Made by a program: the position numbers and the translations under genes
Assembly: GCF_964355755.1 (NCBI RefSeq)
Contig: NC_092673.1
Location: 16,092,948-16,156,947, forward strand
Source of the DNA: Antedon mediterranea
Lineage: Eukaryota > Animalia > Echinodermata
Length of the DNA: 64,000 nt
Direction: 5' to 3'
Notes under the pieces: model-generated
Told to the model about the DNA's origin: nothing
The model's input: the letters and a program-made list of their open reading frames with translations, nothing else
Databases searched by the model: none
Part shown: piece by piece, positions 886-64,000 of the stretch
How positions within the stretch are numbered: the first letter of the stretch is position 1
Layout of the letters: each line of letters opens with the position of its first letter

Positions 886-3800
886 AATTGTTAATCCCTG
901 CCGAAATATATGCCAAAGGTGCAGATGCAATTAAGATATATAAAGATGAGCTAGAAAATGGTGAAATTACAGTTGTAAATGCAAGGTGTATGTTCCTTGG
1001 AAAAGAAGGTGCAGGCAAGACTAGTTGTGTAAAGCGCATGCTTGGAGAAAGGTAACAAGTAAAATAGATGTGTGTATATGTAGGAACTCATATTTTTTTT
1101 TAAACTAAAAAAAAAACCAAAGAACCTGTGTTTATATCAAGCCCCAACTTTGGGTATTGTTGACTTGCTTTGTCCTATTGTAAACTAAAGTCTATTGTGT
1201 CTTAGTTCACACACCGCTGGTTTATAATCTTGTGATGACCAATCACCTCAGACTATGCTACTTTATATTCCACTTATCTTTACTTATACCTAGCATTCTT
1301 CAGAAGATGGTTGTAGCAAACATCCAAACGTCAAGACATAATTTATTTCCTTTTGGAAACACATGGTGTACCACAAACTTAACTTTACTAGACACCAAGA
1401 CAATTTATTCTCTGCTCAAAAATTGCAAATAAATGTTTTTGGAATTTTTGGAAATTTAGAAACCAAAATATAAAAAAGTAATCTGATTGTGATTTTTTAA
1501 ATTTAATTTTTATGATTAAAGATGTATAAATATGAAGTTTCAACTTTACTAATACATTGTAATATTAGATTCAATTCCAGAGAACCATCTACGGATGGTA
1601 TAGTTACTGCAACAGTGTTCCAAGTAACTAAGGAGGATTCTAGCAACTGGAAAAAGATAAAAGATATAGATGGTGAGAGTCAAAGAAATTCTAGAAGAAA
1701 ATAGTTTATTAATTTTCATATATGATATGTTTAATCATCTGATGAAGACATTTTTTGAAGATTTGTGTTTGTTTTGTATGCTTTTACTGGCAATTAAGAA
1801 TAAGTAGGCCTTATAAAATAAATTATTTCATCACAATAGTTGCACCAAAAATAACTAGTCATGCTAGCTGCATGTTAACATCCTTTTCTTACATTTGTTA
1901 TAAAGATTGTACTAGAATTTTGCACTCTGTTATGTCAACGTTCCAAAACCTAAATTACATATCAAAACTTATCAATATCCATTTAAAACTTTTGTATTTT
2001 ACTTCATATAAACTAATTGTTTACCTATTCTTCTTACTTCATACAGATGTGGAACTTACCAAGCAAATTCGTGCACACGCATTAGCAGAAAATGTTGATA
2101 AGAAATTAAAGAAAGGTTGGCACAGACTAAGCAATACTGCATTTTCAAATCTAAATCTGGCATTCATCGTCATCTGAAAATTTAGAAAAGGTTTCTCGAT
2201 CATTGACAATAACATACTAATGCTTATTAATAATTTTTTTTTTTTAGAAAGCAATGATACAACACTTCAGGCTAAATTAAAACATTTTGTGAGTCAAAAT
2301 GTGGGAACAAGAAAGGTAAATGTGAGCGACATAACTAGTATATGGGACTTTGCTGGTCAACTAGACTACTATATAACACACAGGGTATGTTTGTCTTAAT
2401 TATGCTCGAATCTTTTCTTGATAGTAAAATCATATTTAAAACAACATCTCTGTTTTGTTTGTGCCATAGCAAGTTTTTCACAGTTTTGTATTTTAGTTAT
2501 TTTCTATATCCAACAGTATTCATTGATATTAACCTTTTAAAGTAACTAACAATTGAATTTAAATAATATTCTAGGTGGCCTTAATTTTACATTCTTTCAA
2601 GTTAAGACTTTTAGTCCATTCTGAACTTTTTTGGTAGCCAAAATTTGAAAAACCTATATTTCTTTATTATTTATAATTATAAATGTTGACTTTATTTAGG
2701 GCATAATATGTAAAGCCCTTCACTTTAAAAGTAACAAGTTTTCAATTAAAAAAAAAACAAGAGAAATGAAAAATAGGAACTGAACGGCTACAATTCAGAT
2801 CTGGTGATATTTAATTTAGAATATTTTTTTTTATTTTTGTATTTATTTTGTTTCATTTTAAGTTATTGTTTGGACGCACCTTTATCAATGCAGTGTGCCA
2901 CTGTTGTAAAAGTAAGGTTTCCAATAATTATAATATTCTATCTATTAACCTTTACATTGTATTTATATCTTTCAGTTCTTCCTGACAAACAAAGTATCAT
3001 ACTGTGTTACGTTTAATGTGATGGATAACTTGAACGAACTAGCTAATCCACGAGGTTTTTCATTTGTAAGTTCACCAAATATTTCAGATTATTTTGTAAA
3101 ATTTATCAACAGCGAATTGTTTATTTTCTAATTACAATTACATTTTGATTTTAGGATTCCCTAGGAATGACTAATTTGGACATGAATTTGTTTTGGATAA
3201 GGTCTATTTATGAACATACTGTGTCACAACATGGTTCAGGAAACCCCATTTTAATTGATGGCAAGATAATAGAGTCACCTCCTATCTGTTTGGTTGCTAC
3301 CCATATGGATAAATTGTCAGGGACAGAATCAGAAAAACAGATGAAGGTAATAGCTATAGTATACATTTATAACTTAAATATTATTTGACTCTACACATGC
3401 ACATTGCTTATTTATTAGAATGGATAAGCATCACATGAAATAAAAGAAGAAACCTTTTTTTGTATTGTTAATATATATATACAATTTTACTAATTAAAGG
3501 CTGAGAAAATGTTCATGCAGATGTTTGATGCAATGAAAGGATTGCCGTATGCCAATCATGTAGATCGTGAAATGTACATGGTGGATAACACTGTAAAGTC
3601 ACATGAAGGTATTGAAAAACTTAAGCGAAACGTTGGTAGATACATGAAAGCAATGGTACAGGAAGTTCCTGTAAAGTGGGTTAATTTGCAGGAAAAGTTG
3701 CAAATAATTGGAAAAACAAGATTGTACATTACCTTGACAGAGGTAAGGGTTTGAATTAATTTTGTTTTCAACGTCTAGTTATAGAATTCTATTATTCAAT

Positions 3801-5824
3801 ATGCTGTGTGTGTACTCAGAATATTTACTTCAGAGGTGAATAATTGTAATCAAACATTAATCAGTAATAGTAATTATTTAGTCAGTAATGCGGCCGTGAA
3901 CAATCTGTATAGCACCTTGCAATAGTACTGTCCTGTTTAGTTATTTGTTTGTCAAATGAATTTAGTGTAATAATTATATTAAAATGTCAATTCTGCATTA
4001 GGTTTCTGAGATTGCAACTCAATGTGGAATCCCTCAAAATGTTCTCGCCACTGCCATAAGTTATCTGAATGTCACTGGAATTATCATGTACACCGGCACT
4101 AATGAGAAATTAAGAAACATTGTGATAACAAATCTTCACTGGATGATTGAAGTTTTGACAAAAGTCATCACAGTAGTTACACCAATGTTTGAAATGGTTA
4201 GTAAATGCATATTATATATAACTAGACTTGTATATCAGTAGGTCTATTACATTTAGAATCTTTTTTTTTTGTACACAGAAGAAAGCAGAAGATCGGAAGC
4301 AATTACAGAAGCTATGGGAAAAGCTTAGCAATGAAGGAGTTCTTGAAGAGACGTTACTCCGTTATTTGTGGCGAAACGAAGATGAAGATCTTTTTGAAAT
4401 CTTTGTAGAATTGATGAAAGTTTTTCGTTTGCTCTTTGAGAAGACAAAGGTTGGCAAATACACTTTTATTCATTTCTTTGATTAAGCTCTTACTAATCAC
4501 TGGTACCAATTTATGTATAATTGTGATGTTTATATTAACAGGGAATTAAAGAAGGTAACCGGATATTCTTGGTTCCTTGTCGAATGAAAGTTGACAAAAA
4601 AGACATTCTGAAAGTAACAGCAGATGACAAACAAACAGTATCAATTTACCTGACTCCGACGGACTTTCTTCCTGATGCTGTATACAACACATTGGTTGTT
4701 GCATTTCTTGAATTGATGACAGAAAAGGGTATTGATGATTCAGAAGTGTTCCGGAATCGTAGTGACTTTAGATTTAGTGGTCACACTATCAGTTTAGGTT
4801 CTGTCAAAATTAACCATGAAAGGGAAAAACCATATGCTTTAAAGGTATGAAATTAATTACTATTTTTTCTATTAATTATATTCTAATTTCAATATTTAAT
4901 ATAAAATTTGTATATAAAGAGAAAACATAAAACCAATTAACGTTGAATATAGTATATATATGCATTCTGTTCTATGTCTATGTATTACGCACTTTTTTCT
5001 TTCATAGTACTTCAAACCTTTCTCTACTATTTTTTTTTATTTTAACGATGTATTGTTCCCCCTATAACATGGCAAATTAATGATGTTAAATAGCCCATTT
5101 TGCAGATTTAATCAAGTTGTTCACTTCAGTGAAAAAAACAACAAACAAAAGTAATATTTTCACTTTTTGAAGACAAAGCAAATGGTTAAAAAAAATTGTT
5201 TCAAACCAAATAATATGTGACATTAAATAATAACATACTGTATTAACAAAATTTACAATTTTTGAAATTATTCATATATAGTATATCTTTAACGCAACAA
5301 GATGTTCAATTTCTTTTGAATTTATGATCCATTTCAATGTTTATTTGTTATTATGTATTTATCCATCTGTATTAATTATATGCATGCATAGATAAATGTC
5401 AAACGATACTGTTTGAATGTTTTTCTTAACAGCTTGAAATATCACGCTGGACTGACATTAAGCAAACTATAACTACAGTAGATGATGGAAAAGAAGGAGA
5501 GGTGTTATTTGAACTGCAACCAAGTGTCTGCATGGAGGTAAAAAATATGAGATTATCACTTTTAAACAAAATTATTATGTTATATAAATTATAAATAACA
5601 TTTTATTCCCATGTTTTAGGTACTAAGCTACTTGAAAGAGCAACTAGAAACTGTCTGCAATATATACGAGGGCATTGGCTACACTCTGCGTGTGTTATGT
5701 ACTGCTTGTAAACCATATGAACATCACTTAATTGATCTTGAAAAGTGTTTGAATTCCGATTCTGTTCCATGTGGAAGAAGAAATGCTATGGATACTGCTC
5801 GTATAAAGCACTTATTGTCAACGA
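886..5824 (+). CDS. Roco GTPase gene 1, ROC-COR module A (12 exons, 5' end outside window)
   Basis: Phase-compatible AG/GT exons: 886-1051, 1569-1672, 2047-2115, 2248-2384, 2976-3065, 3155-3346, 3500-3742, 4002-4196, 4279-4449, 4542-4844, 5433-5537, 5620-5824. Motifs: P-loop GKEGAGKTS, switch I STDGI, G3 WDFAGQ, G4 VATHMD, COR hallmarks VPVKW, YLNVTGII, LRYLW, FLVPC. The first exon has a phase-1 acceptor and no start codon. Confidence 0.9.
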
Positions 5825-6949
5825 GTAAGTTGGTTTGGTTATTCTTTAATGTTGTCATCACCATTACTTCATTCTAATGAATTCTCAATTTTTGTCATCA
5901 ACAAAGATAACTTCATCTTACAAAATTTGCAATCATCTTAATTTGGACATACTGTACTATGAAACCTTCACTAGTCTAATGTTAGACACCAATCTATTGA
6001 TGATATGCTGGCCATGTCATTTTTTCTCAAATAGTTTCTAATCTTTACCATTGCACATTATTCGCATAATGCCTTTTAAATGTAATTTAGAGTTAAATTT
6101 TGTTGTATTCTAATATCCGAGTAACACTTTATGTAAGTATTTATTTTTTATCATTAAAAAATATGTTTTTGTATTACTGTACTCGGTAGATAATATACTG
6201 TATATAAGAATGAAGATTAGATTGATCACCAAGCTATGCTATGAAAACAGTTTTTCTTTCTATACAACTATTCATTGTAGTTGACCTCTAAATTGTAGGT
6301 GCGTCTTATACACAGGTCACTTCTTCACGCACACCAAAAAGCCACACAAAGTTAACACTACAGCAGTAGCCCACAACAACTATTACTATTACTGTAGGTC
6401 ATAGCCTTTCTAATTTTATTGCAATAATGTCTTGCCTAGAGGGTCGATTACTACATAGTGCATTAGATATTCTACCTAGGCCTTCACCTATTCTTTACTA
6501 ATCTGAACTTGTGTGTGCGTAACTAGATCAAATAAAACACAATTATGGAAAAGTCCACTAATTACGGTGATTATCACGTTTTAATTACACTTGATACTGT
6601 GGTTTATTAAATTACATCCCTATGTTAACAGTCACATATTTCTGTAATCATATAGACAATAGTTTATACATCAAGCGTCATCTAAAAGAACTTGTTTTTA
6701 AAGTGCTAATAAGCTTCCTCTATGTTCATATTTGTATATACAACCGTAAGTGCCGACACATGGCTAGTGTCTTACAGACTAGTATTGACATGCATTTTCA
6801 TAATAGACATAGTTTAAAATTAATAATGATTTTGCTGGTTTATTACCAGCTGTGGACACTTATCATTTGAATTGATTTAAATCAAATGGTCATACACACA
6901 GTAACAAAGTATATATTTAAATAACCTTAGTGTAGATATAATAAGAGCA

Positions 6950-7337
6950 CTCTAAGATCACTGAAAGTATGCTATAACAATGCCTTACGTTTGCTGCTGA
7001 AGCAGCCTAGAAATTGTAGTGCAAGCATGATGTTTGTCTTAAATGATGTCCCATCCTTGGATGAGTTCATTAGAAAATCTGTTTTTTTTTAGTTTTAAAA
7101 AATCATGTGAACGCAAGAAGTAATTCCTTGATCATGGCCATTAATCGCCACGTTCTTAATGTGTCAAGAATGCAAATACAATGGAATGCCTTGTTGCATT
7201 GACTTTATATTTATATTTATATGTTTTTGTTCTATAAGCTCTTAGATTAAGATTTTTTTTCTCTCTTTTGCTATGGATATATTATGTCACGAAGATATTC
7301 TGAAATAAAAAGATGAATGAATGAATGAATGAATGAA
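6950..7337 (+). mobile_element. 3' end of a LINE (RTE-X/CR1-group-like RT C-terminus) with (TGAA)n tail
   Basis: LKVCYNNALRLLLKQPRNCSASMMF, then AATAAA and (atga)n. Duplicated at about 50800-51161. Confidence 0.6.
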
Positions 7338-7918
7338 TATATGCAATTAGAGTCACTTAATTATGATTGTTATTAGACAGGCAGATAGGTTAAGCCCAAC
7401 CACACAGTGCATTGTAACTGAAGAAATGTGGGGATTTCCCTTTTCACAGACTGATTACGATGTAATAAATAGCTGGCCCAAACCAAACTGAAACTCATAT
7501 ATTGGGAAGAATAAACTATATTTAAACATATTTCTAACTGCAAAATTAGAAAATCTTTTGGTAAAATGTTATTACTAATTATACTTGGTGATTAATTTAA
7601 CATCCAAGTCATTGTATTAAGATTCAAGAACATAATTCCAATTTATAGAGATAACAAATTATTTAATTCATCACAAAAACTGTAGAAAGAGTAAAGCTAG
7701 ATTTTAGCTTTACATTCAAGTAGTCTAGCTTGTTGGTTAACGTGCTTGCCTTCCAATCCCAAGGTACGAGGTTCAGTCCTGACTCTTCCAACTCCACTCC
7801 CTGAGCCTCAAGTTTATGCTTGCTGTTTAGATGTCTATGAAATAAGACCAAAAAAAAAAAAATGTTGATTTTACTTGGTTCACTCTCACAAATGTGTTCC
7901 TTTAAATATTATTTTGTC

Positions 7919-8035
7919 GAAAAGGATATTCCATTTGCTGTTGCTGTTCATGGGAGAGACTTTAAGGAAGCGTACAATGAAGCCTCGAAAGAAGGATATG
8001 TCAAAATCAATCTTGGAATGCTTAAAGTAATTTAG
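7919..8035 (+). pseudogene. Decayed paralog of ROC exon 1 (pseudo-exon)
   Basis: Translates EKDIPFAVAVHGRDFKEAYNEASKEGYVKINLGMLKVI* versus DENIPSAITAHGADVQEVYAKALTEGSVKINLGMLKVMG at 10758. No acceptor AG, and it stops before the P-loop. Confidence 0.8.
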
Positions 8036-8164
8036 TATATATTTAGTATATGTCATATACAAACGTATATAGTATACGAATGTATATGAAACATAGGTTG
8101 TATTTTTGCAAAGGTTTACCTTGGACAACATACTGTACCAGTATATATCTGTCTATATATCAAG

Positions 8165-9475
8165 ATGTGTCATCACTATCCCAAATTTAGTATAAGCATT
8201 TCTGATGTACATAACGAATTCATGAAACTCAATTCATCGAAGGCTGCTGGGCCGGATAGAATCCCACCATGCGTACTTAAGGTCTGCTCTCCTCACCTTG
8301 ATGGTATATTTACATTTATTTTCAATATGTGTCTTTCTTATCATGCGTTCCCGGATATTTGGAAACTTTCATGCATAATACCGGTACCTAAGAAACCTAA
8401 GATTAACAGCATGAATGATTTGAGACCCGTTGCACTCACGTCTGTCGCGATGAAAATATTGGAACGTATTATTTTAAAAATTATGCAACCTTATACTGAA
8501 AAAGTGTTAGACCCGTTGCAATTTGCTTACCGATCACTCCGTAGTACCAGTGATGCGATTTATTTTAAATTACATCAATTGTATTCACATCTAGATAATG
8601 TAAAGAAAGGCCACTCGGCACGTATTATGTATTTTGATTTTCAGTCTGCGTTTAATACCATACAACCCCATATCTTAGCAAATAAAATGTTGAATATGGA
8701 GTTTCCCTGTCCGATTGTTCGTTTAGTTTTAAATTTCATTTGTGATAGAAAACAATTTGTTAATATTAATGGTGTTAAGTCAGAAATCGTAACCTCTGAC
8801 ACCGGTGTTCCTCAGGGTACTGTCAACGCACCTAAATTATATTCCTTGTATACAGCCGATTACAGATCTTTAAATGATGAGCTTTGCCCCGTTGTTAAAT
8901 TCGCTGATGACACTAGTACTATTGGTCTCATAGTTTCAAACAATGATGAAAATTATCGTAGCGAAATACAAAGATTTGTTGAATTTTGTGACGATACTTA
9001 TCTCCAAATAAATGCATCAAAAACAAAGGAGAGGATCATTGATTTTAGGACTAAACATAAATTTAATTTTCAACCAATCACTATCAAAGGTAAAGAAATT
9101 GAAATTGTTGACCAGTACAAGTATCTAGGAATTGTTTTCAATGATAAACTGAGTCGGGGAGACCATATAGACTTCATCAGCAAAAAATTAAGTCCCAGAA
9201 TGTATTGTATGAGAACTTTATATAAATTTAACTCCTGTGATTTGATGTTACTTTCGTTCTATAGATCCGTTATATGTAGTGTTGGAACGTATTGCCTCTC
9301 CTGTTGGGCTGGTAATGTTACCGGAGGGAATAAAGGACGCCTTGAAACTTTCATCCGTCGGGCTGGTAAAATGATTGGTCTGGAACTGCCTTCCTTTACC
9401 GATGTGCACCTAGAACACCTCGAGAAAGATTTCGAACGCATTGAGTCGGATGCCTCTCATCTCTCCACAAAGTGA
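8165..9475 (+). CDS. Non-LTR reverse transcriptase fragment
   Basis: KAAGPD, RPVALTS, LDPLQFAY, FDFQSAFNTI, GVPQG, KFADD, YKYLG. The ATG at 8165 is in host flank and the endonuclease domain is absent. Confidence 0.9.
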   Translation: MCHHYPKFSISISDVHNEFMKLNSSKAAGPDRIPPCVLKVCSPHLDGIFTFIFNMCLSYHAFPDIWKLSCIIPVPKKPKINSMNDLRPVALTSVAMKILERIILKIMQPYTEKVLDPLQFAYRSLRSTSDAIYFKLHQLYSHLDNVKKGHSARIMYFDFQSAFNTIQPHILANKMLNMEFPCPIVRLVLNFICDRKQFVNINGVKSEIVTSDTGVPQGTVNAPKLYSLYTADYRSLNDELCPVVKFADDTSTIGLIVSNNDENYRSEIQRFVEFCDDTYLQINASKTKERIIDFRTKHKFNFQPITIKGKEIEIVDQYKYLGIVFNDKLSRGDHIDFISKKLSPRMYCMRTLYKFNSCDLMLLSFYRSVICSVGTYCLSCWAGNVTGGNKGRLETFIRRAGKMIGLELPSFTDVHLEHLEKDFERIESDASHLSTK

Positions 9476-9734
9476 TCATAGACCAACTTAATCCAAGTGG
9501 TAGATTGAGGCTCCTCAGTGTGAAAACAAATCGATTTGCTCAATCCTTTATTCCCTCCGGTATCATCCAGTACAACAGGAAGTTAAGAAGATAATTTTAT
9601 ATTGTAATTTTTTAGATGTTTTTATATGAATGGTTTTATGCTATATTTGTTTTTATAGTGTTTTCTTTGTTATTATGACGAGCAATGAATTTCCTTTTTG
9701 AGGATCAATAAAAGTTATCTTATCTTATCTTATC
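8181..9734 (+). mobile_element. 5'-truncated Rex1/Babar-like LINE
   Basis: RT ORF, AATAAA and a (TTATC)n tail. The paralogous site at 51791-51800 (ctatcttgtt) is empty, which defines the boundaries. Confidence 0.85.
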
Positions 9735-10757
9735 TTGTTTATATTGAAATGGATTCTATGAATAGTATTGGTACAGTATTATAATTTATGGTATATCTTA
9801 AATCCTGTTGAACCAAACTTTTAGAACATAATATTGTGGCTATTGTAATGTTAAATTTAACTGAGGCTAAATAACTATAAAAACAGTACTATGGGCAGAT
9901 TTAGACTTTAACTTAAGATTTATTTCCAAGGATTGAGTGGTTTATATTAATTAATTAATTAATTAATCTCCTGTAAAGTACCATGTTGGCTAAGTCTTGT
10001 GGTTAGTGTTCAATTTTAACTTCTCACAGATGTCCAAGATGATAGAGAGTTACTGCAATCTGTCAATATTCTTAAATAAAAGGCTTGACCTATAATCTGA
10101 TTGGCAAACACTAGACTTTATTGTTTTCATAATCTAGCCATCAATATTATTCAGATTAAAAAAATTAACAAATCAGTTGTCATATTAAAATAATATATTG
10201 TTATCATCAACTAAAATGGCCACTAATCCCATAGTTTTACAACTCGTTTTGCAATTCAGATATGTTTATTTCTTGAAATGTTGTGTAGAATATCGGTTAT
10301 GTTTTGTTTTCAAACCCCTACTTACTTTCTTCCACCTTCTTAGAATGTACACAAGGTCGTGATTATGAAAATGAAATTATTTATACCATTCCACGAATAT
10401 AAAAACATTTATTATTTGTTTTATATAACATCTTAAAGTAGATTCATGCATTTCATTTAAATTGTCATCTTAATAAGAGTGTCCACTGAGTAGGTGTTGG
10501 CCGTAGTGGTAAAACATATATTGCCCTTTTTTTTGCCATTGTCTGCTTACTAGAGGTGTCCCAAAGCGGGAGGGGTTCTACTGTATAAGGGGTATTATAC
10601 ATGAAATGAATTAATATGCTTGCTGAATTAATTGCCATTTGAAGTCATTGCATTAATTGATTTAAACAAATTTATCACAAAAGAAAATAGTTATTGATTT
10701 TTTATTTCTTAGCATTATATGGCATGGTTTTTATATAATAAAATTATATTTTATCAG

Positions 10758-13700
10758 ATGAAAATATTCCATCTGCTATTACTGCTCATGGTGCAGATGT
10801 TCAGGAAGTGTACGCTAAGGCATTGACTGAGGGATCTGTCAAAATCAATCTTGGAATGCTTAAAGTGATGGGGCAGGAAGGAGTAGGTAAAACGTGCCTA
10901 ATCAATGCATGTCTTGGAAAAGAGTAAGTACTAGTTAAAGTACAGAGAAATGAACTATGAAATATGTGAGTTAACTATTATGAATATGATTCATTTTAAT
11001 AACCAATTCCCTAATATCGCAGCCTTAAAAGTAACTCAAGTTCACTAATGGTTTCAAATAATTTTCACTTCAAATTTAACTCCAAGCATAATGTTTACAG
11101 CACTTAAAAGTGACCCAAGTTCATTATTGGTTTCAACTGATTTTCACTTCAGATTTAACCGCAAACATGATGTTACAGATGGAATAGCAGTGATAAGAAC
11201 TGTAACCACAACATGGACAGAAGATTATGACGATAGTGGTAAACATCAATTAATTTAGCTTTTCATCCCTCTTGCAGTGAATAATGATACACTATTTAAA
11301 GATAAACTGGAGATCAATATACTACTGATACCCAGTAGTATATTGTTGGATTCTATGTTAATGTTGATATGAACAGTCGTGTAACTGACTGATTTCTGCA
11401 TGATTTTTTTTTTACATATTAAATATTGTTACTCCTGATCTTTTCTGATGCAAAACATTTGATGGTTTGCTTCTTTCAGGATTGTATTTCATGCAATTTA
11501 CATTATCAAGTAGTTTTAAAGTGGTAACCTAATAATCAAATATTATTCACTTAAATCAGATGTAGGACCTAGAGAAATAAATAACTTTGTTTTATTATTT
11601 TCAGGTGATCCCTCAAAACAGTTTACAAAATATGTCGCTGACAAAATGAGAACAATGAAAACTGAAAACGTATGTCAACAACATTTTTTTTAAAACATTA
11701 AAATAATACAAAAGGCATTTATACTTGTATAATGTGGTTTGGAAAGTAAATGTATTTTCTCTTTAGGTAAATATAAAGAATATTTAACTATTTATAAGTT
11801 TTGTTTTCATTATATGAGTTAGGTTGTCCAGAAATCACCTAAAGATGATGATGAGTTTGAAAATATTGAGGGCCATGATGATGATATTAATGACAACCAC
11901 ACCAATAGGGAAGACAACCACAGCAAAAATGATGGTCATGACAACCACAGCAAAGATGATGATCATGACAACCACAGCAAAGATGATGATCATGACAACC
12001 ACAGCAAAGATGATGATCATGACAACCACAGCAAAGATGATGATCATGGCAACCACAGCAAAGATGATGATCATGGCAACCACAGCAAAGATGATGATCA
12101 TGGCAACCACAGCAAAGATGATGATCATGGCAACCACAGCAAAGATGATGATCATGGCAACCACAGCAAACAGAGCAGTGATAATGATCATGACAAACAG
12201 AGCAGTCATGGTAATGATTATTTTTTGTAACTTTTAAAATTCTGTTTTTTTAAACAATAGTATTGAGAATTATGTAACATTAATGATGAACCTTTTTAAT
12301 GACTGTAACATAACATGTGCAATCCTGAGATTTGATCCCATTCACAATATAGTGGAGTTTATACTGTACCGTGATCGTACCATTTTACAACAATTAAATT
12401 GGAAGGTAATACTGTATCTGCTGTATTAATTAATTATTTGCAGTTATAAATTAATTGTTGTTTTTCTAATAGAAATATTTTCAAACTTGACTAAAGAACT
12501 TTTAGACATTTTATTGTATATTTATATGATTAAATGTGAGTAAAATAATTTAAAAACTACTAATACTATACAATTTATAAAGATAATGACTAAAACAATG
12601 ACAACTCAAACATTGACTAAAATGATTATGTATACAAAAACAATGATGAGAATGATTGTTATGAGTATAATATTGTTGACAATTACAATGATGATGATGA
12701 CAATGATTATGACAAAAACTACAACATTCATGATAATGAAGATGACAACTACAACATTGATTATAATAACAAACAATAACAACAACAACAACAATGATGA
12801 ATTTTTAATGACTATAATGATGATAGTGATGACAACTATGAATATAGTGGGGTTCACATGGAACTATGTCTAGAAGAAGTGGATTTAACAATTTTCTACT
12901 AAACCTTGACAAATCCCGTTCTTTGGTACAATTATGTCTAGTTAATTCAATTTCATAAAAACCTGGTATTGAAGATTTTAAATACTATTTTATGTATAAA
13001 ATCATCTCTTTTTTTTATTTATCCTGTATGTTGTTTACTTTTAACTTGTGATTACCAATTAGTCATTTGTTAAATTTTGTATACTTTTTTTATATACTTT
13101 TCAGTATAGTAAATATTGTAGGCCTACCATCTTCTCTTATATCTATTAGACCTCTGTTCCTCATCAGACATAGTTCATTTAATTTTTTAGGACATTTTAC
13201 GGTAGTACACAATGAAGAATAACCATATTCTTTGCAATTTAAATGTAAAATATGAAAATTCTTCAATTGGGTTAAAAAATTCTTTAATTTCATTGGTGCA
13301 AATGAGACTGAAGGTCACCTGCTGGGTTGTTAATTGAATTACCCTCATAAAATAACTGGCTATCCTTGGATTTAGTTCTAAATCCAAGCAGCAATAATTG
13401 TACAGAAAAAAACCATCATCCGGACATAATTGAGCGTTCACATCCAAATTATGGCGATCATATAGATAATCTAGTTAAATTAACTAGCCATAGTTCGATG
13501 TGAACGCCACTATGAGATTACTACAATGGTGCTTTTTGCATGTGGAGTATTACAAACAAAATCTGTTTTACCTACAGGTACTGACATTCCATTTGATACA
13601 GATCAGCAGTTAGATAAAAATGTGATCAAGGAAGTTGAAGAAAATAAGGAGGACCCCTTGGAAGAAACATTCAACATCTGGGACCATGGAGGTCAATTAA

Positions 13701-16700
13701 TATACCATGGTATACATCGCGTAAGTAATTTTAAGTGATGTTTTATTGGGGAGGTGTTGGGCGTTTATTCAAATAAATACCATCCTAATTGATATAATTA
13801 ATACATTATTTTAGTTTAAACATCTTTTGAAACTAACTTCCGCGACACAGCGGGCCATTTTGGCCTAAGACGGAAGAAGTTTTAGACGGCTTGCAACATG
13901 GGAAGAAGTATATCCTATGGTCCTAATGAGACACAGATAGGGAAAAGTTATACAGACCTGCCAGCTTATTAAACAACTCGGCTATTGGGATTCACTTGAT
14001 TTTAAACAAAAGGTCTTATCATCAGTTCTCCTGATGTAATTTTATATTCTATTCCCCACAATATAATCCGATGCTTTATGAGGGATCTTTATTAATTTTC
14101 AGTATGTATAATTCTTATTTTGCTAGCTACTGTACCTTCACACCCGCAGTCCGAAAATAAAGAAAAAACTCAAATGGCTATCGCCACCAATGGCCAACTT
14201 AGTTACAAGATGTTGACTCACTGTGAACCCGGAACTAACTTTATCGCCGACACTTAAAAATCTACCGATGAAACCCAACATTTCGTTTTAAAACCCTCCA
14301 TGATATCTTCCTAAGAGAGAAATATGGAGCAATATCGTATAGGCCTGCTAAAATGTAGAATATACCTATCGCGGTACACATGTAACAGCTAACAACTAGG
14401 GTAACCAACACAGAGTTGGTGACACACGTTTTACACTGTGTCTACCTATTCCAGAAATAAGCATAATTTATATATAGATGCAGACATTGCTGAGTTTCTA
14501 CACAAAGGCTCTGCTGTAAGGAGTATTCAAATAGTTCACTACAAAAAGATGATGTTGGCCACTTTGACTATGAGAACAATGTAGTGCTATGGAAATACAA
14601 AAATACATTACATTTTAGTGAAAAATTCTTGCTAGTACTTACTTGTCTCATCTGCCATTTCCTCTTTTAGTTCAGAATATGTATTTATATTGTTTAATCT
14701 ATATAGCATAACTCTCTTTTTCCTTCCTCTTCTTTTACCAACATATCTTTTCTATCACTATTTTCAATAGTCCTCCTTCTCTCCTTTCACATCTATACAA
14801 ACTCTGTACGTGACACACATGATTTTAGTTTTCCTATTATTGATCTTTATTCCATAATTTTTTTTTTCTGCTTCATTTATTCTATCCATTAGTATTATTA
14901 TTATTCTTTTACAATTGATATTCAGTATATACAGTAAATCCTATTAATCTATAATTTCTGTTTTTAATCTGTACTAATTATAGTCTTCTGAGGTGAGTTA
15001 TTGCTTAGATATAGATTTTGGAACATTTCTACAAATATTTTGTTTATTTATTTGTACCAGAGAAGAAGTGTTTGGTAAATAGAGTAAAACAGTTTATTAA
15101 TGAACTTGTATGTTCTTTAAAGAACCATTTGTCTAAATATCAGTTGTACAGTATAATCAGTAAATTTCATGCTTTTTGCAGATGTTCATGACAGTAGAAG
15201 CACTTTACATTATAGTATTCAATCTCAGTGTGAACCTTGAGGATCGTGCTATTTTCATTGATGCAAATGGAGTAAGTATTTGTAGGCCATGTAAAGTAAT
15301 AGTTTGAGGGACCTTAATAGCAATTAACCCACTGGGCTAAACTGGAAAGGTTACCCTCTTGTTTTAAATATACATATTGTAAATATTGTGGTGGAATAAG
15401 TCTTTTCGAAAAGGAAAAAGGAAAGGATTTTGTTTCATACCTTCCAGATAAGCTTCAAATTTAATCGTGGATAAAATCATTAAATTGTATGATAGTTGTT
15501 GAATTTTTTTTTTTCAGAAAAAACGTAAACATCATTGGACCAATCTCCAGTTCATATTATCTTACATCCAGTCAGTTTATTCTCATAGTCGTATTGGGAA
15601 AGAAAACAAAGAAAAGGGAGTTCATAAACCAACTATCCTTATTGTGGGTACACATAAGGGTAAGCTTAGTTGGTTTAAAAAAAAACAAAATGCTGAGGTA
15701 AATACTCAATGCTTCCATTTTTATGTTTACTGAAATTACCACAACTAAGCATACATGTCAGATCTATAATAAGCAAATGAGTACTAGAGTAGTGCATCAA
15801 TTAATTTGATTACTTAAGTCTATCGTGCGATTATTAGCAATATAGTAATCCCAGAGTCTATCATAAAGAAGTTTTTGAATATTAATTTATAAATTTGTTA
15901 TTATTAGGCAAAAAAGGTATTTAAAAAGCTTCGAACTGCACTTAAAGAGAAACTGTATGAAGAACATGTATATCACCGATATTTTGCCATCGAGAACAGT
16001 AAAGAAACTACAGATGAAAGCTTTAGTGAACTCAAAAAGGTTATTGATGAGTTTATGTCAGATTTAGAAAAGCCTGTTCCTTTGAAGTGGATGCGTTTTC
16101 GATGTGGCATACATAATCTAAGGAGAGAAAAACACTTTTCTTTGTGTCCTGTTGAAGAGGTAAGTTTAGTGTTTTGTTTTGAGAATAGAAATGTGTTTAA
16201 AATAATATCTAAGAAAGCATAAACAAAAAAACAATTATTATTAGTAAATTTTAAAAAGATATCAATCTAATGCACTGGACTTACTTGTTTAGAAACAGCA
16301 ACGTTTCACGACCGATCAAGGTCGTATCATCAGGCCGAATGATGGAATTGTGGCATTTGATCAGTGCTGTTAGTAAAGGAGGAGCTGTTAGTAAAGCATC
16401 TAGATATTTTGTTGATAGCTGAATTGAAAGTACAAAATCCCTAGACGCTTCACTAACAGTTCCTCGACTCTGTCACGGGTCACTGACCAAACGCCACAAT
16501 TCCATCATTTGGCCTGATGATACGACCTTGATCGGTCGTTTAACCTCGCTGTTTTTAAACAAGTAAGTCCAGTGCATTAGATTTATATCTTTTTAAAATT
16601 GATACTACCTGGATGAATGAGAATATTCATATCCATATTATTAGTAAATATAATAATATTGATTGGTAATATGGTCCTAACCATGTCTGAAGAATTATGA

Positions 16701-18927
16701 GCCAAACCTAGTAATATTACATGGAATATTCACAGCAATGTTACCATTCTAAAAGAGCAATCGTATAAACAATTGTATATCCCCCAGCTGGCCGTGTGTT
16801 CCTTCAGATCCAACATTTTCCAGTAAATTTTATCAAGTAAATGACAAAAAAATGACAGTATTTATGCAGAACTTTTTATATGGTAATTGTAAGATTTTAT
16901 GCCATAAAGGACAAAAATAATGTTATAAATGTATACCTACCTATGATTTTATATTTTATTTAAATTTGAATAGTAATTAATATTTTTCTTTAGCTTAAAA
17001 CGCTGGCAAGTGAGAATGGTATTGCAGATGAAAAACAACAATCAATCCTTCTTAACTTCCTGTATGATCTTGGTGAAATTGTTTACATGCCGGACAACAA
17101 ATTATTAAAAGATAAAGCGGTGTTAGATCCAATGCAGCTGGTTGAAATTGTCACGGCTTTTGTAACAGTCATTCCACCAGAAGATCCAGTAAGTAGGCTC
17201 ATAAAAATGTTAATGCAGTGTTGCTTGGGAAAATAATAGTACATGTGAATTCCTATAGGCACTGTAGTATCAACAGCAATATTTATCCATGTTCTGGTGG
17301 GGTTTTTTTCAACAGAATTCCTGCATCTCTTTTCAGATTCTAAATTGTTTGATAACTTAATAAACACAAAATCATATGTATGGCTAATTGGCGGTATTTT
17401 TTTTAGCTGCCCATATTTAGGAAGGCTTTTGATAAACTTGACAAGGGCATACTGGAAGAAGACTTGTTGCGTGAATTATGGAAAAAGCGTAAAGTTGACG
17501 AAGGAAAGAATTTTGAGTTTCTTGTAGCACTGATGATTAAATTAGGTTTCATTTGTGAAAGGAAGACAACCAACAGCCAAGATAGGGCAAGTACATCTAT
17601 AGTAAGTTATCTTTTCTAACATGTTATGTTTTGCATGAAGCTAATGTGAAAAAATGATTTTTTATAAGATACATAATTGGTGAAATTTTACATAAAATTT
17701 CTAAATATTTGTAGGGTTATGACATATTTTGGTTAAACGTCCTGCTGAAAGATGTTTTTAACATGTACAGGAAATGATCTTCGTTTTCTTATTAAAAAAA
17801 ATTTAAATGGCATTTTACAAATCAACAATTTCAGGAATCTGTTGGAAAGCGATCATTCTTTGTGCCACTACGCCTTGCTTTCAAGACATCAAGTGAAGTA
17901 AAACCAGTGCCTGATGATTCACAATCTATCAGTATCTACTACGACTTTAAGGGATATCTGCCAGATGTATTGTTTCCATATATGATTATTGATTTCCTCA
18001 ACAAATTTCAAATGAAAGGTGTTGACCCAATACTCTTGTATAATCATGCTGAACTTGACTTCAACCAAGATCATCATGTGAACTTATCTCTTGTCAAATT
18101 TGTGACTATGGACGATGAAAGAAAGTTCTTGTTAAAGGTACTGTATCATATAATTTGTTGTGAATAAGTTATGATTTAATAATAAAAACTTAAATTCAGA
18201 TATCAAAACATTTCTTTTCTTCCTTTTTTAGGTGACTATTAAAAGAACTCCTGCTTCTAATGAAACAAGTAATGATGAACCCTCTTCTGAAGCATGTAAA
18301 GAGGTTTGTTATTTCATATATCAATATTGAAAACTATATCATTTTTTATAGATGTTTTTGTTGATTTGTTTTTTTGTAATTATGACATAGTTTAAAATAA
18401 CTTAAATATTTAAAATCATGTTTGTGTAGTTTACTTGATGCGTAATATAATTTGTAATTTTTATTGATATACATTATTAATTGAATATTAAATAGATTAT
18501 TGACAATTGATTTATAAAAACAATACATCTTTAACAAATTAATGATATAATCTTAATATTATATCAATTTAAAATACAAACAACTGAAAGTACAGTTATC
18601 AAAACTAGTTTATAAGTGATTTTTACTGAAATGTAGATTTTAAAATTTGTGCTATATTGTTTGTGTTAATTGCATGTTGTTGGAAATTAACCTTCAATTT
18701 ATATTGTTAGGTTTTGTTAACGATCCAGAAGTCATTTGAACCTTCTCAAGATGGTGGTAGAAGAGGGATTCAATATGAGAGATGCATACTTTGTGATGTA
18801 TGTAGTGATACATCAGAACAGAAGCACATTCAAAATCTTGGTGATTTCCACGACGAGAAGTTGAAATGCTCCAAAACTGGCACGTATATGAGTATGGATG
18901 TTACACGTTACAAGCGGCTATTTGAAG
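10758..18927 (+). CDS. Roco GTPase gene 1, ROC-COR module B (13 exons)
   Basis: Exons 10758-10923, 11153-11238, 11605-11669, 11823-12210, 13578-13720, 15182-15271, 15518-15697, 15908-16159, 16994-17188, 17407-17601, 17835-18137, 18232-18303, 18711-18927 splice into one open frame. Motifs: GQEGVGKT, VTDGI, WDHGGQ, VGTHKG, VPLKW, FLYDLGEI, LRELW, FFVPL. Confidence 0.9.
11913..12170 (+). repeat. 27-bp coding minisatellite, about 9.5 units, (D/G)NHSKDDDH
   Basis: g(a/g)caaccacagcaaagatgatgatcat repeats inside exon 11823-12210. Confidence 0.95.
16252..16630. mobile_element. Penelope-like terminal fragment in inverted (fold-back) arrangement
   Basis: About 120-bp arms 16252-16366 and 16480-16596 are reverse complements and carry a CTGATGA-stem-GAAAC motif. 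Duplicate at about 61297-61680. Confidence 0.6.
16296..16340 (-). ncRNA. Minimal hammerhead ribozyme core (Penelope-type)
   Basis: Minus strand reads cCTGATGAt-acgacc-ttgatc-ggtcgt-GAAACg. I did not confirm stems I and III. Confidence 0.5.
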
Positions 18928-19511: not shown

Positions 19512-19543
19512 ATCGTAAAAGGATCCCAATGGAAATAAGCTAA
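19512..19543 (+). CDS. Candidate short terminal exon (soluble isoform, DRKRIPMEIS*)
   Basis: T-rich tract plus AG at 19510-19511, phase 1 matching the donor at 18927, TAA at 19541-19543, AATAAA at about 19649. Confidence 0.5.
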
Positions 19544-19846
19544 TAAGCTTTTTGGGCTATCCTGGAAAATCTTTTATAAATGTATTATTTGTAATGTCCG
19601 TAATTTATGTTATCACTTTGTATATGTATTTTTTATGATGATTTTCCTAATAAATTCAAATCAAATGTCGCGTTGCAAAAATTCTCAAATTGTTTCCAAA
19701 GAACTGAAAGTGCGTTAAAGCATCATTTGGAATTAGCCCTAACTAACTTGTTTATAAAATAAATTGTTGCATTCATGACTGTGTTTGAATGTGATGTGAA
19801 TTTGAGTATCTATTGAATATATTGTTATATTTTTCAGTAAATACAG

Positions 19847-19876
19847 ATGTTGCTGGAACATCAAGTTCAAACCAAG
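19847..19876 (+). CDS. 30-nt phase 1-1 linker micro-exon (DVAGTSSSNQ)
   Basis: atacag|at gtt gct gga aca tca agt tca aac caa g|gtatgt. Confidence 0.65.
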
Positions 19877-21025
19877 GTATGTTATGTCTTTTATTATTAT
19901 TATAATGAAGTAAGTCAATTAAGACAGAAAAGGATTTTGTGTTATAACCAATTGCATAATATATGGCCATGCTGTATGTAGCATGTTTAAATAGTACATG
20001 CTTATAAAATAAAGGAAGAGCATATCTTTTTGAAATAGACGTCATCTCATTTTGATCATTTTAAACAGTGGTAATTAAGAAGCCAAACAATTAATGATAA
20101 AATCATTACTTTCTCTTATTTTAATTATTTAAAATTATTTTAACACAAAAACATGATATTGATAATTAAGATAATGTAATGAGTGTAAGTAGGTTTACTG
20201 TAGTTTTTTAATTAATATATTAATTATATTTACAGTAAATATAAAATTATTATAGTGTTTCATTTATTTATATTCTAAAAACAATGATTATGATTTTACC
20301 AATAATTCAATAATAATTATACTATTGGCTAGAGCTATCAAACTGACGTTTTCAAGACTGATTTAGGGATTGTTCTTTTTTTTGATGACCACCAGAATCT
20401 CGCACACAAAAACAGCAGCTTCAGTTAATGCAGCTATAAACATTTTTTTATAGCAATTATATAACAAAACTGCTTATAATTATTGACTGCTTTTTCATCG
20501 TTCAGTATATTTATATCTCTCGCCTCGTGATCCAAACGGAAGCCACATGGCCGTGTGCTGAATACGTAATTGAAAAGTTTTGTTGTATTCAAACGTTGAG
20601 AGCGCTACTCCATGTTGATCACATAATGTTCATTATTCACTTGACCGTTTATTAAAATAGTATTTTTTGCAACTTTACTAAACTAGGCCTGGGCCTAAAT
20701 GATAAAAGATCGGTCGGGTTGCAGAAAAATAGTTAACATGGCTGTTAAATTTTAGTGAGGGTGGGGGCTAAAACCCGTCTAAATTTAAATATAAGAGAGT
20801 GATAAATGATACATGATGATGAAACTGACTGGAAATCATTCTTATGGTTTAACCATCACATTTAATCAATTCAATTCAAGAAACATTTATTGACCAAAAA
20901 TATTATATCATAACAATGGCATATAATATATATAGTCGAGAGACTACAAAAGGCCCGATGGGCCTGTCGCTGTAGTCCCTCTTTACATTATACAAATAAT
21001 AATAATACAACACCTTCTGGTACAG

Positions 21026-21073
21026 ATACAGCTTCTGGTGCAGGTGCAGATTCAGCAGAAGCCATTCTGCAAG
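21026..21073 (+). CDS. 48-nt phase 1-1 linker micro-exon (DTASGAGADSAEAILQ)
   Basis: tacag| ... caa g|gtaac, open frame, GC-richer than its flanks. Confidence 0.6.
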
Positions 21074-21993
21074 GTAACAACATTAAAAAAACTGGTATTA
21101 TTGAAATTTAGATGTTTTGCGCCGTGGACAATTTCGAAAGAAATATATTGAATTTTATTGAATATTGAATTTCTAAAAATATTCTTTAACACACTGTATA
21201 TAGGTATATATAGGTAAAAAGCATTTTTAGCAACTTTTTTCATTTTTAACTGTTCAAAAGTAGATGGCAAAACTAGATAATTAACTTTCAAAATGACGTT
21301 AGTAGCAATATATTATTGTTTTCTTGTTTATCAGTGTTTGACTGCTGGCTATGTAGTGTTTACATTTATATCCTATGTAACTGTTACCTCTTGAAATTTT
21401 TGTGTTTTAATCCATGATACACTTTCTTCAAGGTAATTCAGTGATCATTAATTTACTGCCCAGTCCAGAAGGTATGTTGCATCATGTATTTCATTCTTTT
21501 GATTTATTTATTTGACAGTAAAAATGAAAATAATTGAAGCAGGAAAAAAAAGTTTTAAATAATATAAAACTTATTTCCATTTGGGACCCTAACAATTAGA
21601 ATCTAGAAAATATAACAATTGATAAACATGGATAAAAAACTGCAAGCTCAAGAAAACAATAACATACAATATTAACAATATACACAAATTCATAAAATGT
21701 TGTTGGTACAAAGGTGAATTCCAATTTGGTTTAAATGTGTGTATGTTGGTGATTGGTTTAATTATCCTGGGTTAATGAATTCCATGTCTTTTACATTGTA
21801 GTATAAGCTAGATTGTGCCCTGTGCTACTAACATGTGGAAACTTAATGTACATTAGTGAAATAGATAAAACCTAAATCGAGCCAGATTTTAATCTTTGAC
21901 TCCATACGCATGGCTATAGATCCTTCTGTGAGTCAATGTTTAAACAATATACTGGCAATAAATCAACTGTTTAACTACTGCTTGCAATTACAG

Positions 21994-24504
21994 GTTCAAG
22001 TTCAAGTTCAGAACAACATCATAGAAGGTAAATATTTTTTTGATTAACACCACTCTCTTATTACCACACTCGGACTGGTAAAATGTAATTACAGTCTTAC
22101 AGTTTTAACTATAGAGCTACAGCCACTACCGTATAACTCCTATTTAGGGGTGTTCCTTGAATATAAAAATCCCCCTTTTTGTTTTACGGGAAAAACTGTA
22201 ATTTTTTTCACTAAAAAATGTGTACGCATACATAGTGAATGAGTGGCCCATCGGTTAAGACAGTGGAACCGTAAGACATAGCCATAACATCGGCAAGGGT
22301 TCCAGGCTCATTCACTTTATGGTTCAGGTGGTAGAACAATATAAACTGTAGAGTTCCAGTGTACACATCTGGCTCTTTTGCACTTTAAAGAACCTAGTAC
22401 ATCTTTCAAGACGAATAGGGGTTACCCCGGTGTACTAGTATACACACACACACACAGCAACTGTCATATACAGCCACTTATCTAGGGAGCCGCACATCCT
22501 TTAGGGACAAATGAATAAAATAGAAATAAACAAAAATACTTATTGCTGTATGCATGTGATGGTGTTTCTGTGGGATCTCCACTTGTCCTAGTATTACCTA
22601 TATTTAATGACGGAATTGAAAAAGTAAAGTCGGTCTTCCAACAAAGAAAATATTCTCTCCAATTCAATGAATACACAACATTCATTTTTGTCTGTTTAAT
22701 CCCTACTGTCTTAAAGCAGTTATGTAATCACAACAAAATTGACCACTTCAACCTTGAATTTGATGTCAAGGCAAGGTGGCTGGAAGAATGGCGGCGCTCA
22801 AATATTCAATTATTAGGTTTTGGTTGGATTATTCGTTGGTCCATCTCATAGCACAAATTTTCTTGTTTCAGAAAAGACTGGTCATCCATTAGTGTCACTT
22901 TAAATGTTAAAATAATATCCTTTTAAAACAAAATCAATTTGAAAGTAAATTTATCACGATGACATCAGTTCATTGCTTGGAAGATGTATTATACTTTATA
23001 TGGCCTTGTTTCTTTTGAATAGTGTCGAATAAACCGTTTGTTTAGACTGACCGCATTTCTGCTAAATTTGTGCTTTTAAATAACTCTTTAAATTGGTGGT
23101 TAGTCGTTGACAAAATTACATTACCCAAAATGCAATGCAATCAAGCAGTCAAACATATAAGGCCCTGTTTCTGCTGCCAAAGCTGCTGTTGAAAGTGAGA
23201 GGCGTAAAACTTCCTTTATTGCGACTTTTAAATATCGAACAAATAAATGAATGGCAATTTAAGTAAAAAGGATGAATTTTAAAATGACCACCAAAGAAGT
23301 ATTGTTAGCAGAAAAGGGGTACTAAAAATACCATATTTTGAGCAGTTGCAGCAGAAACAGGCCCTAAGATTCTATATACAATAAAATATTATTTTGCATT
23401 GCAGCTAAGTAGCACAGCAATAACCAGTTAAATGGCATTCTAGCCTCCAATCATTTAAGCCCGTTTTTCTGTCGATCGTTAAGTTGCGTTCAGTTTAAAA
23501 TCGTTAACGATTAACAGGAAAAGGGGGTAAAAATCAACTTTAAAAATCATTAAAATCTGCAATAGTTAACAATTACGGTTGTTACGATCGTTAAAACTGA
23601 CCAATCAAATGGTCCACAAATTACATCATTGCAGTTTGTGAAAAAAATAGGTATGCGCTGACAATTCTTGAATTTTTACAACGCGACGATGTTTTTCACT
23701 TCATTGTACACTTTCAAGGCATGATATTTCAAAACAACAAGTGCAAGTCAAATTAAATTATAATATTACAACAATTAAATTTAATGTGTGTCTTTAATGA
23801 AGGCGTAGATTAAGATATCAACGAAAGCATGTCCTAGGCTGGGTTGAAGCATCAAAACCCGTAACTTTTTCAATTTTCACGTGGCTGGCCTTGGTTTTGC
23901 AACACTTCACGTCCGCGTGTTCCTGCAACGCTCGGAAGAACCAAGAAACTATGAATGATCGCGTAAAATATGTGTAAATATTAGCGGTCTGGCTTGATCA
24001 TCGTCATTATTATTTTATTTTCAACTTTACCGATTTTAAACTCGACGCAACTAAATGATTGACAGGAAAACAGGCTTTATGTATTTTTTACTGTTATTTT
24101 CACATTACCATTTATAAATGCCAGTTAAAAGTGGTTATTCCCATTTCTGCTGCCAAGAAATTTGGGGTAATTAATTCACACAGTTATTAATACATTTTTT
24201 TGTGTTACTGCATTCAAATGGTTCAATAACTTTTTATTTATTATTTCACACCTAAGAACATATGAAATGATTCCCATTTCAATGATTGAGAGTACAATGA
24301 TGATGTGCTACTGCTGGTGAATAATGTGTGTTTAAATACCAACCAATGTGAAAGGGAACATTTTGAATGCCTTCCTTCCACATTCCATTGGAGTTCACTC
24401 CATTTAATAGAAAGTCAATCTATCATTCATTATAGTCATATACTAATTATGTGTACATCTTTATTTATAGGCTGACTAAAAAGGACATTTTCAAAGGTAA
24501 TTTA

Positions 24505-24538
<34 letters not shown>

Positions 24539-40568: not shown

Positions 40569-40580
40569 CTCCCACCCAAA

Positions 40581-52910: not shown

Positions 52911-52961
<51 letters not shown>

Positions 52962-63962: not shown

Positions 63963-64000
63963 GTAAGAGTAACAAAACAGACAATTGTATTTTTATTACC

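What the first reader, a model, noticed from the sequence alone, without database searches (positions are those of the whole stretch)
886..18927. Roco gene with two tandem ROC-COR GTPase modules in one reading frame
Seen: module A ends at a phase-1 donor (acga|gtaagt, 5824) and module B starts at a phase-1 acceptor (tcag|at, 10758) with no start codon of its own. The modules have low protein identity but nearly the same exon skeleton (166/166, 90/90, 195/195, 303/303 nt), so each is a symmetric phase 1-1 unit. Known: characterised Roco proteins (LRRK1/2, DAPK1, MFHAS1, Dictyostelium Rocos) carry one ROC-COR and several dimerise through COR. Inference: this encodes a covalently linked ROC-COR pseudo-heterodimer made by ancient module duplication. 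More modules may lie upstream.
Basis: partly seen in the sequence, partly recalled or inferred. Interest (0 to 1): 0.85.

Follow-up and report, generated by a model that had tools for sequence, protein, structure and literature searches.

The report
Feather-star chimera with two Roco switches
A feather-star gene splices two very different copies of the GTP-switch module known from the Parkinson's protein LRRK2 into one reading frame that ends in a predicted membrane anchor; it likely arose recently by joining two old gene subfamilies and likely acts as an adaptor between them in immune-type signalling.

Summary
Confirmed. Twelve exons (886-5824) and thirteen exons (10758-18927) each encode a ROC-COR module and join without a stop. 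One public run from one study holds a spliced contig across the 5824-10758 GT-AG junction with no mismatch. With five tail exons the chain equals residues 136-1681 of RefSeq model XP_071947615.1 of Antedon mediterranea: ankyrin repeats, ROC-COR A, ROC-COR B, two predicted membrane helices.

Each module nests among single-module paralogs (A up to 82% identical, B 77-92% for its closest kin), and a tree joining A with B is rejected (p-AU 1.5e-52). This points to a recent fusion of two old subfamilies, not an internal duplication. An intramolecular pseudo-heterodimer is unshown, and the linker is only about 5 residues. Two other double-module proteins of separate origin turned up among 134 examined. 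Six literature searches found no description of the layout. This scan noted double ROC-COR genes before on other DNA (e1-10649904, e1-8652897), one of them without RNA support. New variant of a known kind.

The parts
886..5824 (+). Module A (alpha0-ROC-COR), 12 exons: 886-1051, 1569-1672, 2047-2115, 2248-2384, 2976-3065, 3155-3346, 3500-3742, 4002-4196, 4279-4449, 4542-4844, 5433-5537, 5620-5824; G1 GKEGAGKTS, G3 DFAG, G4 THMD
   Evidence: exons, frame; Pfam Roc, COR-A, weak COR-B; motifs; COR fold vs 3dpu/3dpt, E 6e-14
5825..10757 (+). Junction intron, 4933 nt, GT-AG, phase 1
   Evidence: joint 5824 to 10758 in run X1, 101 nt on the shorter side
7908..8030 (+). Truncated remnant of a further B-type first exon, without an AG acceptor at the matching place; skipped by the observed splice
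   Evidence: (tblastn 57%)
8181..9730 (+). Retroelement insertion with a reverse transcriptase frame (8090-9472), absent from the second copy of this intron
   Evidence: (RVT_1 E 2e-28)
10758..18927 (+). Module B (alpha0-ROC-COR), 13 exons: 10758-10923, 11153-11238, 11605-11669, 11823-12210, 13578-13720, 15182-15271, 15518-15697, 15908-16159, 16994-17188, 17407-17601, 17835-18137, 18232-18303, 18711-18927; G1 GQEGVGKTC, G3 DHGG, G4 THKG (no Asp)
   Evidence: ROC-COR fold vs 6hlu E 2e-13
11823..12210 (+). Exon with a His/Asp-rich 9-residue tandem repeat inside ROC B between G2 and G3 (HSKDDDH 8 times here, 13 in the second copy), low confidence and without structure in the model
19838..24496 (+). 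Four small spacer exons (19838-19876, 21433-21471, 21994-22027, 24471-24496), partly Ser/Thr-rich
   Evidence: joint 18927 to 19838 seen in X1 at 93% likeness, so possibly from a paralog
25027..25199 (+). Terminal exon with two hydrophobic stretches (predicted membrane hairpin) and the stop
   Evidence: matches the end of P0001
48531..63962 (+). Second, tandem copy: only the last two module-A exons (the first interrupted by an insertion), the junction intron and module B' (53613-63962; public model P0002, XP_071948735.1)

Best explanation
The gene is a spliced chimera of two ROC-COR GTPase modules from different Roco subfamilies, likely joined recently by phase-1 exon shuffling, and it likely works as a membrane-tethered adaptor whose two switches would each pair with free members of their own subfamily rather than with each other. 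Shown: one reading frame, the spliced junction, two full ROC-COR folds, intact G1-G3 motifs in both, separate ancestry of the halves, no death-fold hit in this protein. Inferred steps: (1) the front half of an ANK-ROC-COR-DED gene lost its spacer and DED tail and took the variable N-terminal slot of a B-type gene, a slot that holds a DED, a kinase or an OGFOD2-like domain in paralogs; (2) the C-terminal hairpin holds the protein on a membrane with the rest in the cytosol; (3) each COR dimerises in trans with single-module, DED- or Death-bearing relatives in the nucleotide-free or GDP state and lets go on GTP binding, as the Chlorobium protein does; (4) the chimera thereby gathers, cross-wires or damps two immune or cell-death branches at that membrane, with the ankyrin repeats as the likely sensor.
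For: Junction spliced in X1. Closest relatives are single-module: for A, P0047 82%, P0031 80%, P0033 79%, P0032 73%, all on a 22.3-Mb contig; for B, P0002 92% and P0006, P0008-P0012 77-82%, on this 36.2-Mb contig. A-B split 100/100; A+B clade rejected, p-AU 1.5e-52 on 20 of 112 modules. Anneissia japonica proteins fall on both sides (A side 99, B side 81). Both halves look maintained: A departs at 4 family-invariant sites of 506 columns (other members 3-18), B at 0 of 504 (others 0-23). Paralogs carry DED, Death, kinase, ZU5, HEPN and ankyrin domains, while P0001 has no death-fold hit at E 0.01. The linker is about 5 residues, and three Antedon sisters of A (P0031-P0033) have long Pro/Ser/Glu-rich spacers at that spot. 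COR-mediated dimers and GTP-driven release: PMC6337361 section 9, PMC5714945 abstract. Membrane-tailed Rocos: PMC3341825 passages.
Against: No binding, GTPase, localisation or expression data exist for any crinoid member here, and the immune role rests on the domain company of paralogs. Not every Roco dimerises through COR: the LRRK1 dimer does not (PMC10643122 passages). Module A evolves somewhat faster than its sisters (52 vs 37 unique changes, chi2 2.5; 45 vs 28, chi2 4.0), and the tandem copy lost most of module A, which fits a dispensable passenger. Gene conversion is evident (copy divergence 0-17% in patches), so an older fusion with halves refreshed from paralogs is not excluded. I could not measure the distance that the linker must span in a COR-COR dimer, so 'too short' is inference. 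The second hydrophobic stretch is weak (Kyte-Doolittle above 1.8 but below 2.0).
Confidence: 0.45

Rival explanations
1. Intramolecular pseudo-heterodimer: the two CORs close on each other within one chain, so the protein is a self-contained GTP-driven open/close switch, possibly with the Asp-less ROC B as a regulatory partner.
For: Both modules keep the complete C-terminal COR subdomain with its terminal strands and helix, the part that dimerises in CtRoco and LRRK2 (PMC6337361 section 9; PMC10643122 passages). Tethering raises local concentration. Double modules arose at least three times.
Against: The halves are 26% identical and come from subfamilies that evolved as separate single-module genes, so there is no sign that the surfaces co-evolved. 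About 5 residues separate the ordered end of A from the ordered start of B.
Confidence: 0.2
2. Transient by-product: symmetric phase 1-1 modules in a fast-turning gene array fuse by chance, and one module (likely A) is a tolerated passenger on an otherwise ordinary membrane-anchored B-type Roco.
For: The tandem copy has lost 10 of 12 A exons; a dead B-type exon and a retroelement sit in the junction intron; A is modestly accelerated; dN/dS between the two copies of the last A exon is 0.93, one of them a fragment (16 and 5 changes). No second A+B protein was found among 181 proteins or.
Against: A keeps G1-G4 and family-invariant residues at the normal rate. Its 659 codons would stay stop-free under neutral change in 721, 159 and 21 of 3000 runs at 1.5%, 3% and 5% per lineage without indels, and in 141 and 0 of 3000 with a quarter or all of the intron indel rate. 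An open frame is, however, also needed just to reach module B.
Confidence: 0.28
3. Two neighbouring genes with occasional read-through splicing; the public model merges them.
For: One run only. A possible phase-1 acceptor followed by a stop lies at about 10030 and is kept in the second copy. Low-depth cover of the intron just after 5824 exists in X1. Contigs drop rare variants.
Against: The X1 contig runs unbroken across the junction at depth 17.3, close to the 25.6 of the neighbouring A11-A12 joint, and no joint from 5824 to another acceptor is among the 4 joints listed. No remnant of an A-family DED tail was found in the window (4 tails searched).
Confidence: 0.07

Closest known systems
Chlorobium tepidum Roco (3dpu, 3dpt, 6hlu, 8r4b) and Methanosarcina barkeri Roco2 (4wnr)
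   Same: Best solved sequence matches (E 2e-13 to 4e-11) and best or near-best fold matches for both halves: alpha0 helix, ROC, two-part COR.
   Different: One module per chain, LRR sensor, homodimer between chains; no membrane tail. Identity in the fold alignments is 12-18%.
Human LRRK2 and LRRK1 (and DAPK1, MFHAS1)
   Same: ROC-COR fold; ankyrin repeats upstream as in LRRK1/2.
   Different: Single ROC-COR, with kinase and WD40 in the LRRKs. LRRK2 dimerises through COR-B, LRRK1 does not (PMC10643122 passages).
Ectocarpus LRR-ROCO candidate immune receptors (PMC3341825; PMC11378527)
   Same: Large lineage-specific expansion by local duplication, exon shuffling, repeat insertion inside ROC, and a group with one or two C-terminal membrane segments (passages read).
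   Different: Shuffled units are single LRR exons; no double ROC-COR in the passages I saw.
Branchiostoma belcheri XP_019630255.1 (P0129) and unnamed record P0119
   Same: Two ROC-COR modules in one predicted chain.
   Different: Separate origins: P0129 joins an LRR-type module to an unrelated one (4.2 substitutions per site apart); the two P0119 modules are each other's nearest in this set. Both are gene predictions whose splicing I did not test.
Proteins with two G domains in series (EngA/Der, Miro); recalled, no call
   Same: Two GTPase switches in one chain; Miro is also tail-anchored.
   Different: Ancient, conserved and without COR; analogy only.

Membership tests
Roco family | Ras-like ROC domain with G1-G3 motifs | tested here: met
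   Both modules have G1 (173, 833) and G3 (280, 1064) and a G2-type TDG after G1; Pfam Roc 87 bits, 4 stretches. ROC B was modelled and matched; ROC A was not modelled.
Roco family | COR directly after ROC, with N- and C-terminal subdomains | tested here: met
   Pfam COR-A 111 bits, 2 stretches; COR-B weak, E 0.0014, under its cut-off. Models of each COR match CtRoco COR over about 365 columns, target TM 0.68-0.70.
Roco family | Guanine-specifying G4 aspartate | tested here: inconclusive
   A has THMD, B has THKG, as do its paralogs. The position varies across the wider set: D 48, G 21, N 19, E 13, other 13, unmatched 33 of 147. PMC6337361 section 9 says G4-G5 vary in Rocos.
Roco family | GTP binding and hydrolysis | not testable with these tools
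   Needs purified protein.
Roco family, as characterised | One central ROC-COR per chain (usual layout, not a formal criterion) | tested here: not met
   Two modules; this is the variant feature.
COR-dimerising G proteins (CtRoco, LRRK2 type) | Dimer through the C-terminal COR subdomain | not testable with these tools
   The subdomain is present in both modules; whether and with what it pairs needs experiment.
Internally duplicated gene | The two repeats are each other's closest relatives | tested here: not met
   (p-AU 1.5e-52).
Death-fold immune Rocos of this crinoid | DED or Death effector domain in the chain | tested here: not met
   No such Pfam hit in P0001 at E 0.01; present in many paralogs.

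The most novel reading that the evidence does not exclude
A natural single-chain ROC-COR heterodimer: a canonical GTP-sensing module A clamps onto a module B with altered base recognition (G4 without Asp), making a membrane-anchored two-input switch, and invertebrate immune Roco families reinvent such covalent pairs repeatedly. It would be a ready-made tool to test whether COR pairing in cis or in trans drives the Roco GTPase cycle.
Probability: 0.2. Interest if true: 0.8.

Novelty: new variant of a known kind. Interest (0 to 1): 0.52.

Why it matters
How dimerisation and GTP turnover are coupled in Roco proteins, LRRK2 included, is still debated (PMC6337361, PMC5714945). A transcribed protein with two unlike, intact modules allows each P-loop and each COR to be changed separately in one chain. 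The finding also shows that a whole 650-780-residue GTPase unit of 12-13 exons moves as one phase 1-1 cassette in an expanded invertebrate family, and that double-module Rocos arise more than once.

Tried and rejected
No whole genome was held, so upstream exons and paralog coding sequences could not be read; dN/dS was limited to the two window copies (B vs B' 0.6, 40 and 18 changes over 603 codons). The run search listed 5 runs and 'no RNA holder listed' on record; X1 is RNA by guess. In one search only 15 of 74 joints were shown and the junction was not among them; the narrower one search showed it. Complex prediction of COR-A (440-795) with COR-B (1222-1579), folded without alignments: no answer, score 0.00 in both runs, controls not folded; it is no evidence either way. 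I could not obtain an alignment deep in both halves (searches put A-type rows on the B half), so the two AlphaFold models (pTM 0.56 and 0.44) are confident in one half each and say nothing on the inter-module arrangement. The possible stop exon near 10030 had no cover in X1 (bin 9911-10107 depth 0, next to a skipped repeat), which proves nothing. The idea that the Asp-less G4 marks B as a decayed pseudo-GTPase was dropped: it is subfamily-wide and the site varies widely. P0138 and P0164 showed split G3-G5 hits but one COR and were not counted as doubles. A sequence look-up in earlier findings returned nothing. Literature: six full-text searches gave no paper describing two ROC-COR modules in one chain; the 'two roc', 'second roc domain' and 'duplicated roc' hits that I opened refer to dimers, ROCO gene counts or duplicated loci. 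Subscription papers, including the early Roco surveys, are not in the library, and I read no supplements, where such an architecture could be drawn.
Full report
Observation. I rebuilt the exons by hand and checked them in scripts. Module A has 12 exons (886-5824, 659 aa) and module B has 13 (10758-18927, 783 aa). All splice sites are GT-AG, both modules start and end in phase 1, and the joined frame has 0 stops in 1443 codons. Adding five tail exons (19838-25199) gives a chain identical to residues 136-1681 of P0001, which is RefSeq model XP_071947615.1, an uncharacterised protein of the feather star Antedon mediterranea. Pfam finds Roc (87 bits, 4 stretches), COR-A (111 bits, 2 stretches), weak COR-B and weak ankyrin hits at the N-terminus. 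AlphaFold models confident in one half each match CtRoco, LRRK1 and LRRK2 (best E 2e-13 for ROC-COR B, 6e-14 for COR A). Nine of 11 A introns match a B intron within 2 columns and in phase.

Splicing. The run search listed 5 holders from 2 studies, none on record as RNA. I laid two of them. X1 (2018, a different study and sample from the other four) shows exact GT-AG intron skips that X2 lacks. On 5380-11260, X1 gave 4 joints: A11-A12, an opposite-strand join inside the intron at depth 4.4, B1-B2, and 5824 to 10758. One 320-nt contig (depth 17.3) covers 101 nt of A12 and all 166 nt of B1 with no mismatch, plus 53 nt of B2. The second genomic copy differs at 13 of those 101 and 7 of those 166 bases, so the contig belongs to this copy. 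This shows the junction is spliced. It is one run, and contigs do not show a full-length transcript or its share.

Origin. Module A's nearest relatives are single-module proteins on another contig, two of them ANK-ROC-COR-spacer-DED: P0047 82%, P0031 80%, P0033 79%, P0032 73%. Module B's nearest are single-module proteins of a large family on this contig, 77-92% for the closest. In a 27-row tree the A and B clades are split at 100/100 and A is sister to P0031 and P0033 at 100/99 (P0043 and rows without the G3 motif were left out). In a 20-row tree drawn from 112 modules, holding A and B together costs 577 log units, p-AU 1.5e-52 (quick LG+G4 model, with long-branch warnings). Anneissia japonica proteins lie on both sides, strongly on the A side and at support 81 on the B side, so the subfamilies are likely older than the split of the two genera while the fusion is likely young. 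The caveat is gene conversion: the two window copies differ by 0-17% in patches, so an older fusion refreshed from paralogs is not excluded.

Local history (inferred). The junction intron holds a truncated B-type first exon (7908-8030) and a retroelement. A second copy of the last two A exons, the junction intron, the remnant and module B follows at 48531-63962; it lacks the retroelement, has an insertion in A11' and no A1-A10 in the window. So the A-B arrangement predates this tandem duplication.

Are both modules maintained? G1-G3 are intact in both. G4 is THMD in A and THKG in B and its paralogs, but this site is D in only 48 of 147 ROC stretches examined, so it does not mark decay. A departs from family-invariant residues at 4 of 506 columns (others 3-18) and B at 0 of 504. 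Against this, A has more unique changes than its sisters (52 vs 37, chi2 2.5; 45 vs 28, chi2 4.0), and of 15 differences in the last A exon 8 map to this copy, 5 to the fragment and 2 are unresolved. Neutral simulations keep A open in 721, 159 and 21 of 3000 runs at 1.5%, 3% and 5% change without indels, and in 141 and 0 of 3000 with indels at a quarter or all of the intron rate. This suggests selection on the frame but does not prove it, and the frame is also needed to reach B.

How common? A profile search of 1.84 billion representatives gave 11,438 hits, of which only the best 150 were listed. Among the 181 proteins then held, 134 had G3-G5 and COR-A hits, and 3 had two modules: P0001, P0119 (unnamed) and P0129 (Branchiostoma belcheri XP_019630255.1). 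Their modules do not group by position, which implies separate origins. A further search for long B-type proteins returned 11 hits and no new double. Earlier notes of this scan describe another double-module locus about 0.9 Mb away in this genome (e1-10649904) and a pseudo-GTPase plus intact pair in another genome (e1-8652897). I did not examine either locus.

Mechanism. [quoted passage not shown] It is dimeric when empty or GDP-bound and monomeric with GTP (PMC5714945, abstract). LRRK2 dimerises through COR-B and LRRK1 does not (PMC10643122, passages). Ectocarpus Rocos include a group with one or two C-terminal membrane segments (PMC3341825, passages). AP-GTPase/COR proteins occur in apoptotic and counter-invader systems (PMC8195603, passages). 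PMC11378527 was seen in passages only. In this protein the ordered end of A and the ordered start of B are about 5 residues apart, where three close sisters of A have long flexible spacers, the halves have separate histories, and the chain has no death-fold hit while many paralogs do. I therefore favour modules in series that each pair in trans with their own subfamily, making a membrane-tethered adaptor or damper (0.45), over a tolerated passenger (0.28), a dimer closed within the chain (0.2) and read-through between two genes (0.07). Every functional step is inferred; none was tested.

Novelty. It is a Roco by fold and motifs, with a doubled core that I did not find described in six searches (open-licence library only, no supplements read). 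It is a new variant of a known kind, already present as an unannotated public gene model and paralleled in other invertebrate predictions. Interest 0.52; 0.8 if the covalent heterodimer proves real (probability 0.2).

Noticed in passing
window 21016-39000 (+): Several alternative or duplicated tail exons follow module B: a further small Ser/Gly/Ala-rich exon near 21016-21072, repeated spacer exons (about 27250, 34660, 36450), a second copy of the membrane-tail exon at 35190 with a 1-nt frame change, and two other hydrophobic exons near 38215 and 38855. They could give alternative membrane tails.
   Followed up: partly
window 19512-19542 (+): A possible phase-1 acceptor followed by a short frame and stop, which would give a soluble form without the membrane tail; not seen among the joints shown.
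   Followed up: no
window 40066-44106: Two identical 503-bp direct repeats (40066-40568, 43604-44106) flank a 1026-codon minus-strand frame (40584-43661); it looks like a young, internally shortened LTR retrotransposon (label from recall, not scanned).
   Followed up: no
end of both modules (window 5620-5824 and 18711-18927): A Cys-x-x-Cys, His and later Cys cluster closes each COR and recurs in brittle star and lancelet relatives; a possible metal site.
   Followed up: partly
window 11823-12210 and 56940-57429: The His/Asp-rich repeat inside ROC B varies in copy number between the two window copies (8 vs 13).
   Followed up: partly
window 15127-18962 vs 60169-63997: The two B copies are a mosaic of near-identical (0-2%) and diverged (about 10%) tracts across exons and introns, as expected from gene conversion.
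   Followed up: partly
window 16242-16607, 49124-49357, 54703-54864, 31386-31745: Long palindromic elements (self-matching on the opposite strand), probably non-autonomous transposons; one interrupts exon A11' of the second copy.
   Followed up: no
proteins P0013, P0024, P0025, P0033, P0105, P0174: Relatives carry varied add-on domains around the same module: DED, protein kinase plus Death, OGFOD2-like, ZU5, CARD-FN3-TIR, TPR-GT4.
   Followed up: no
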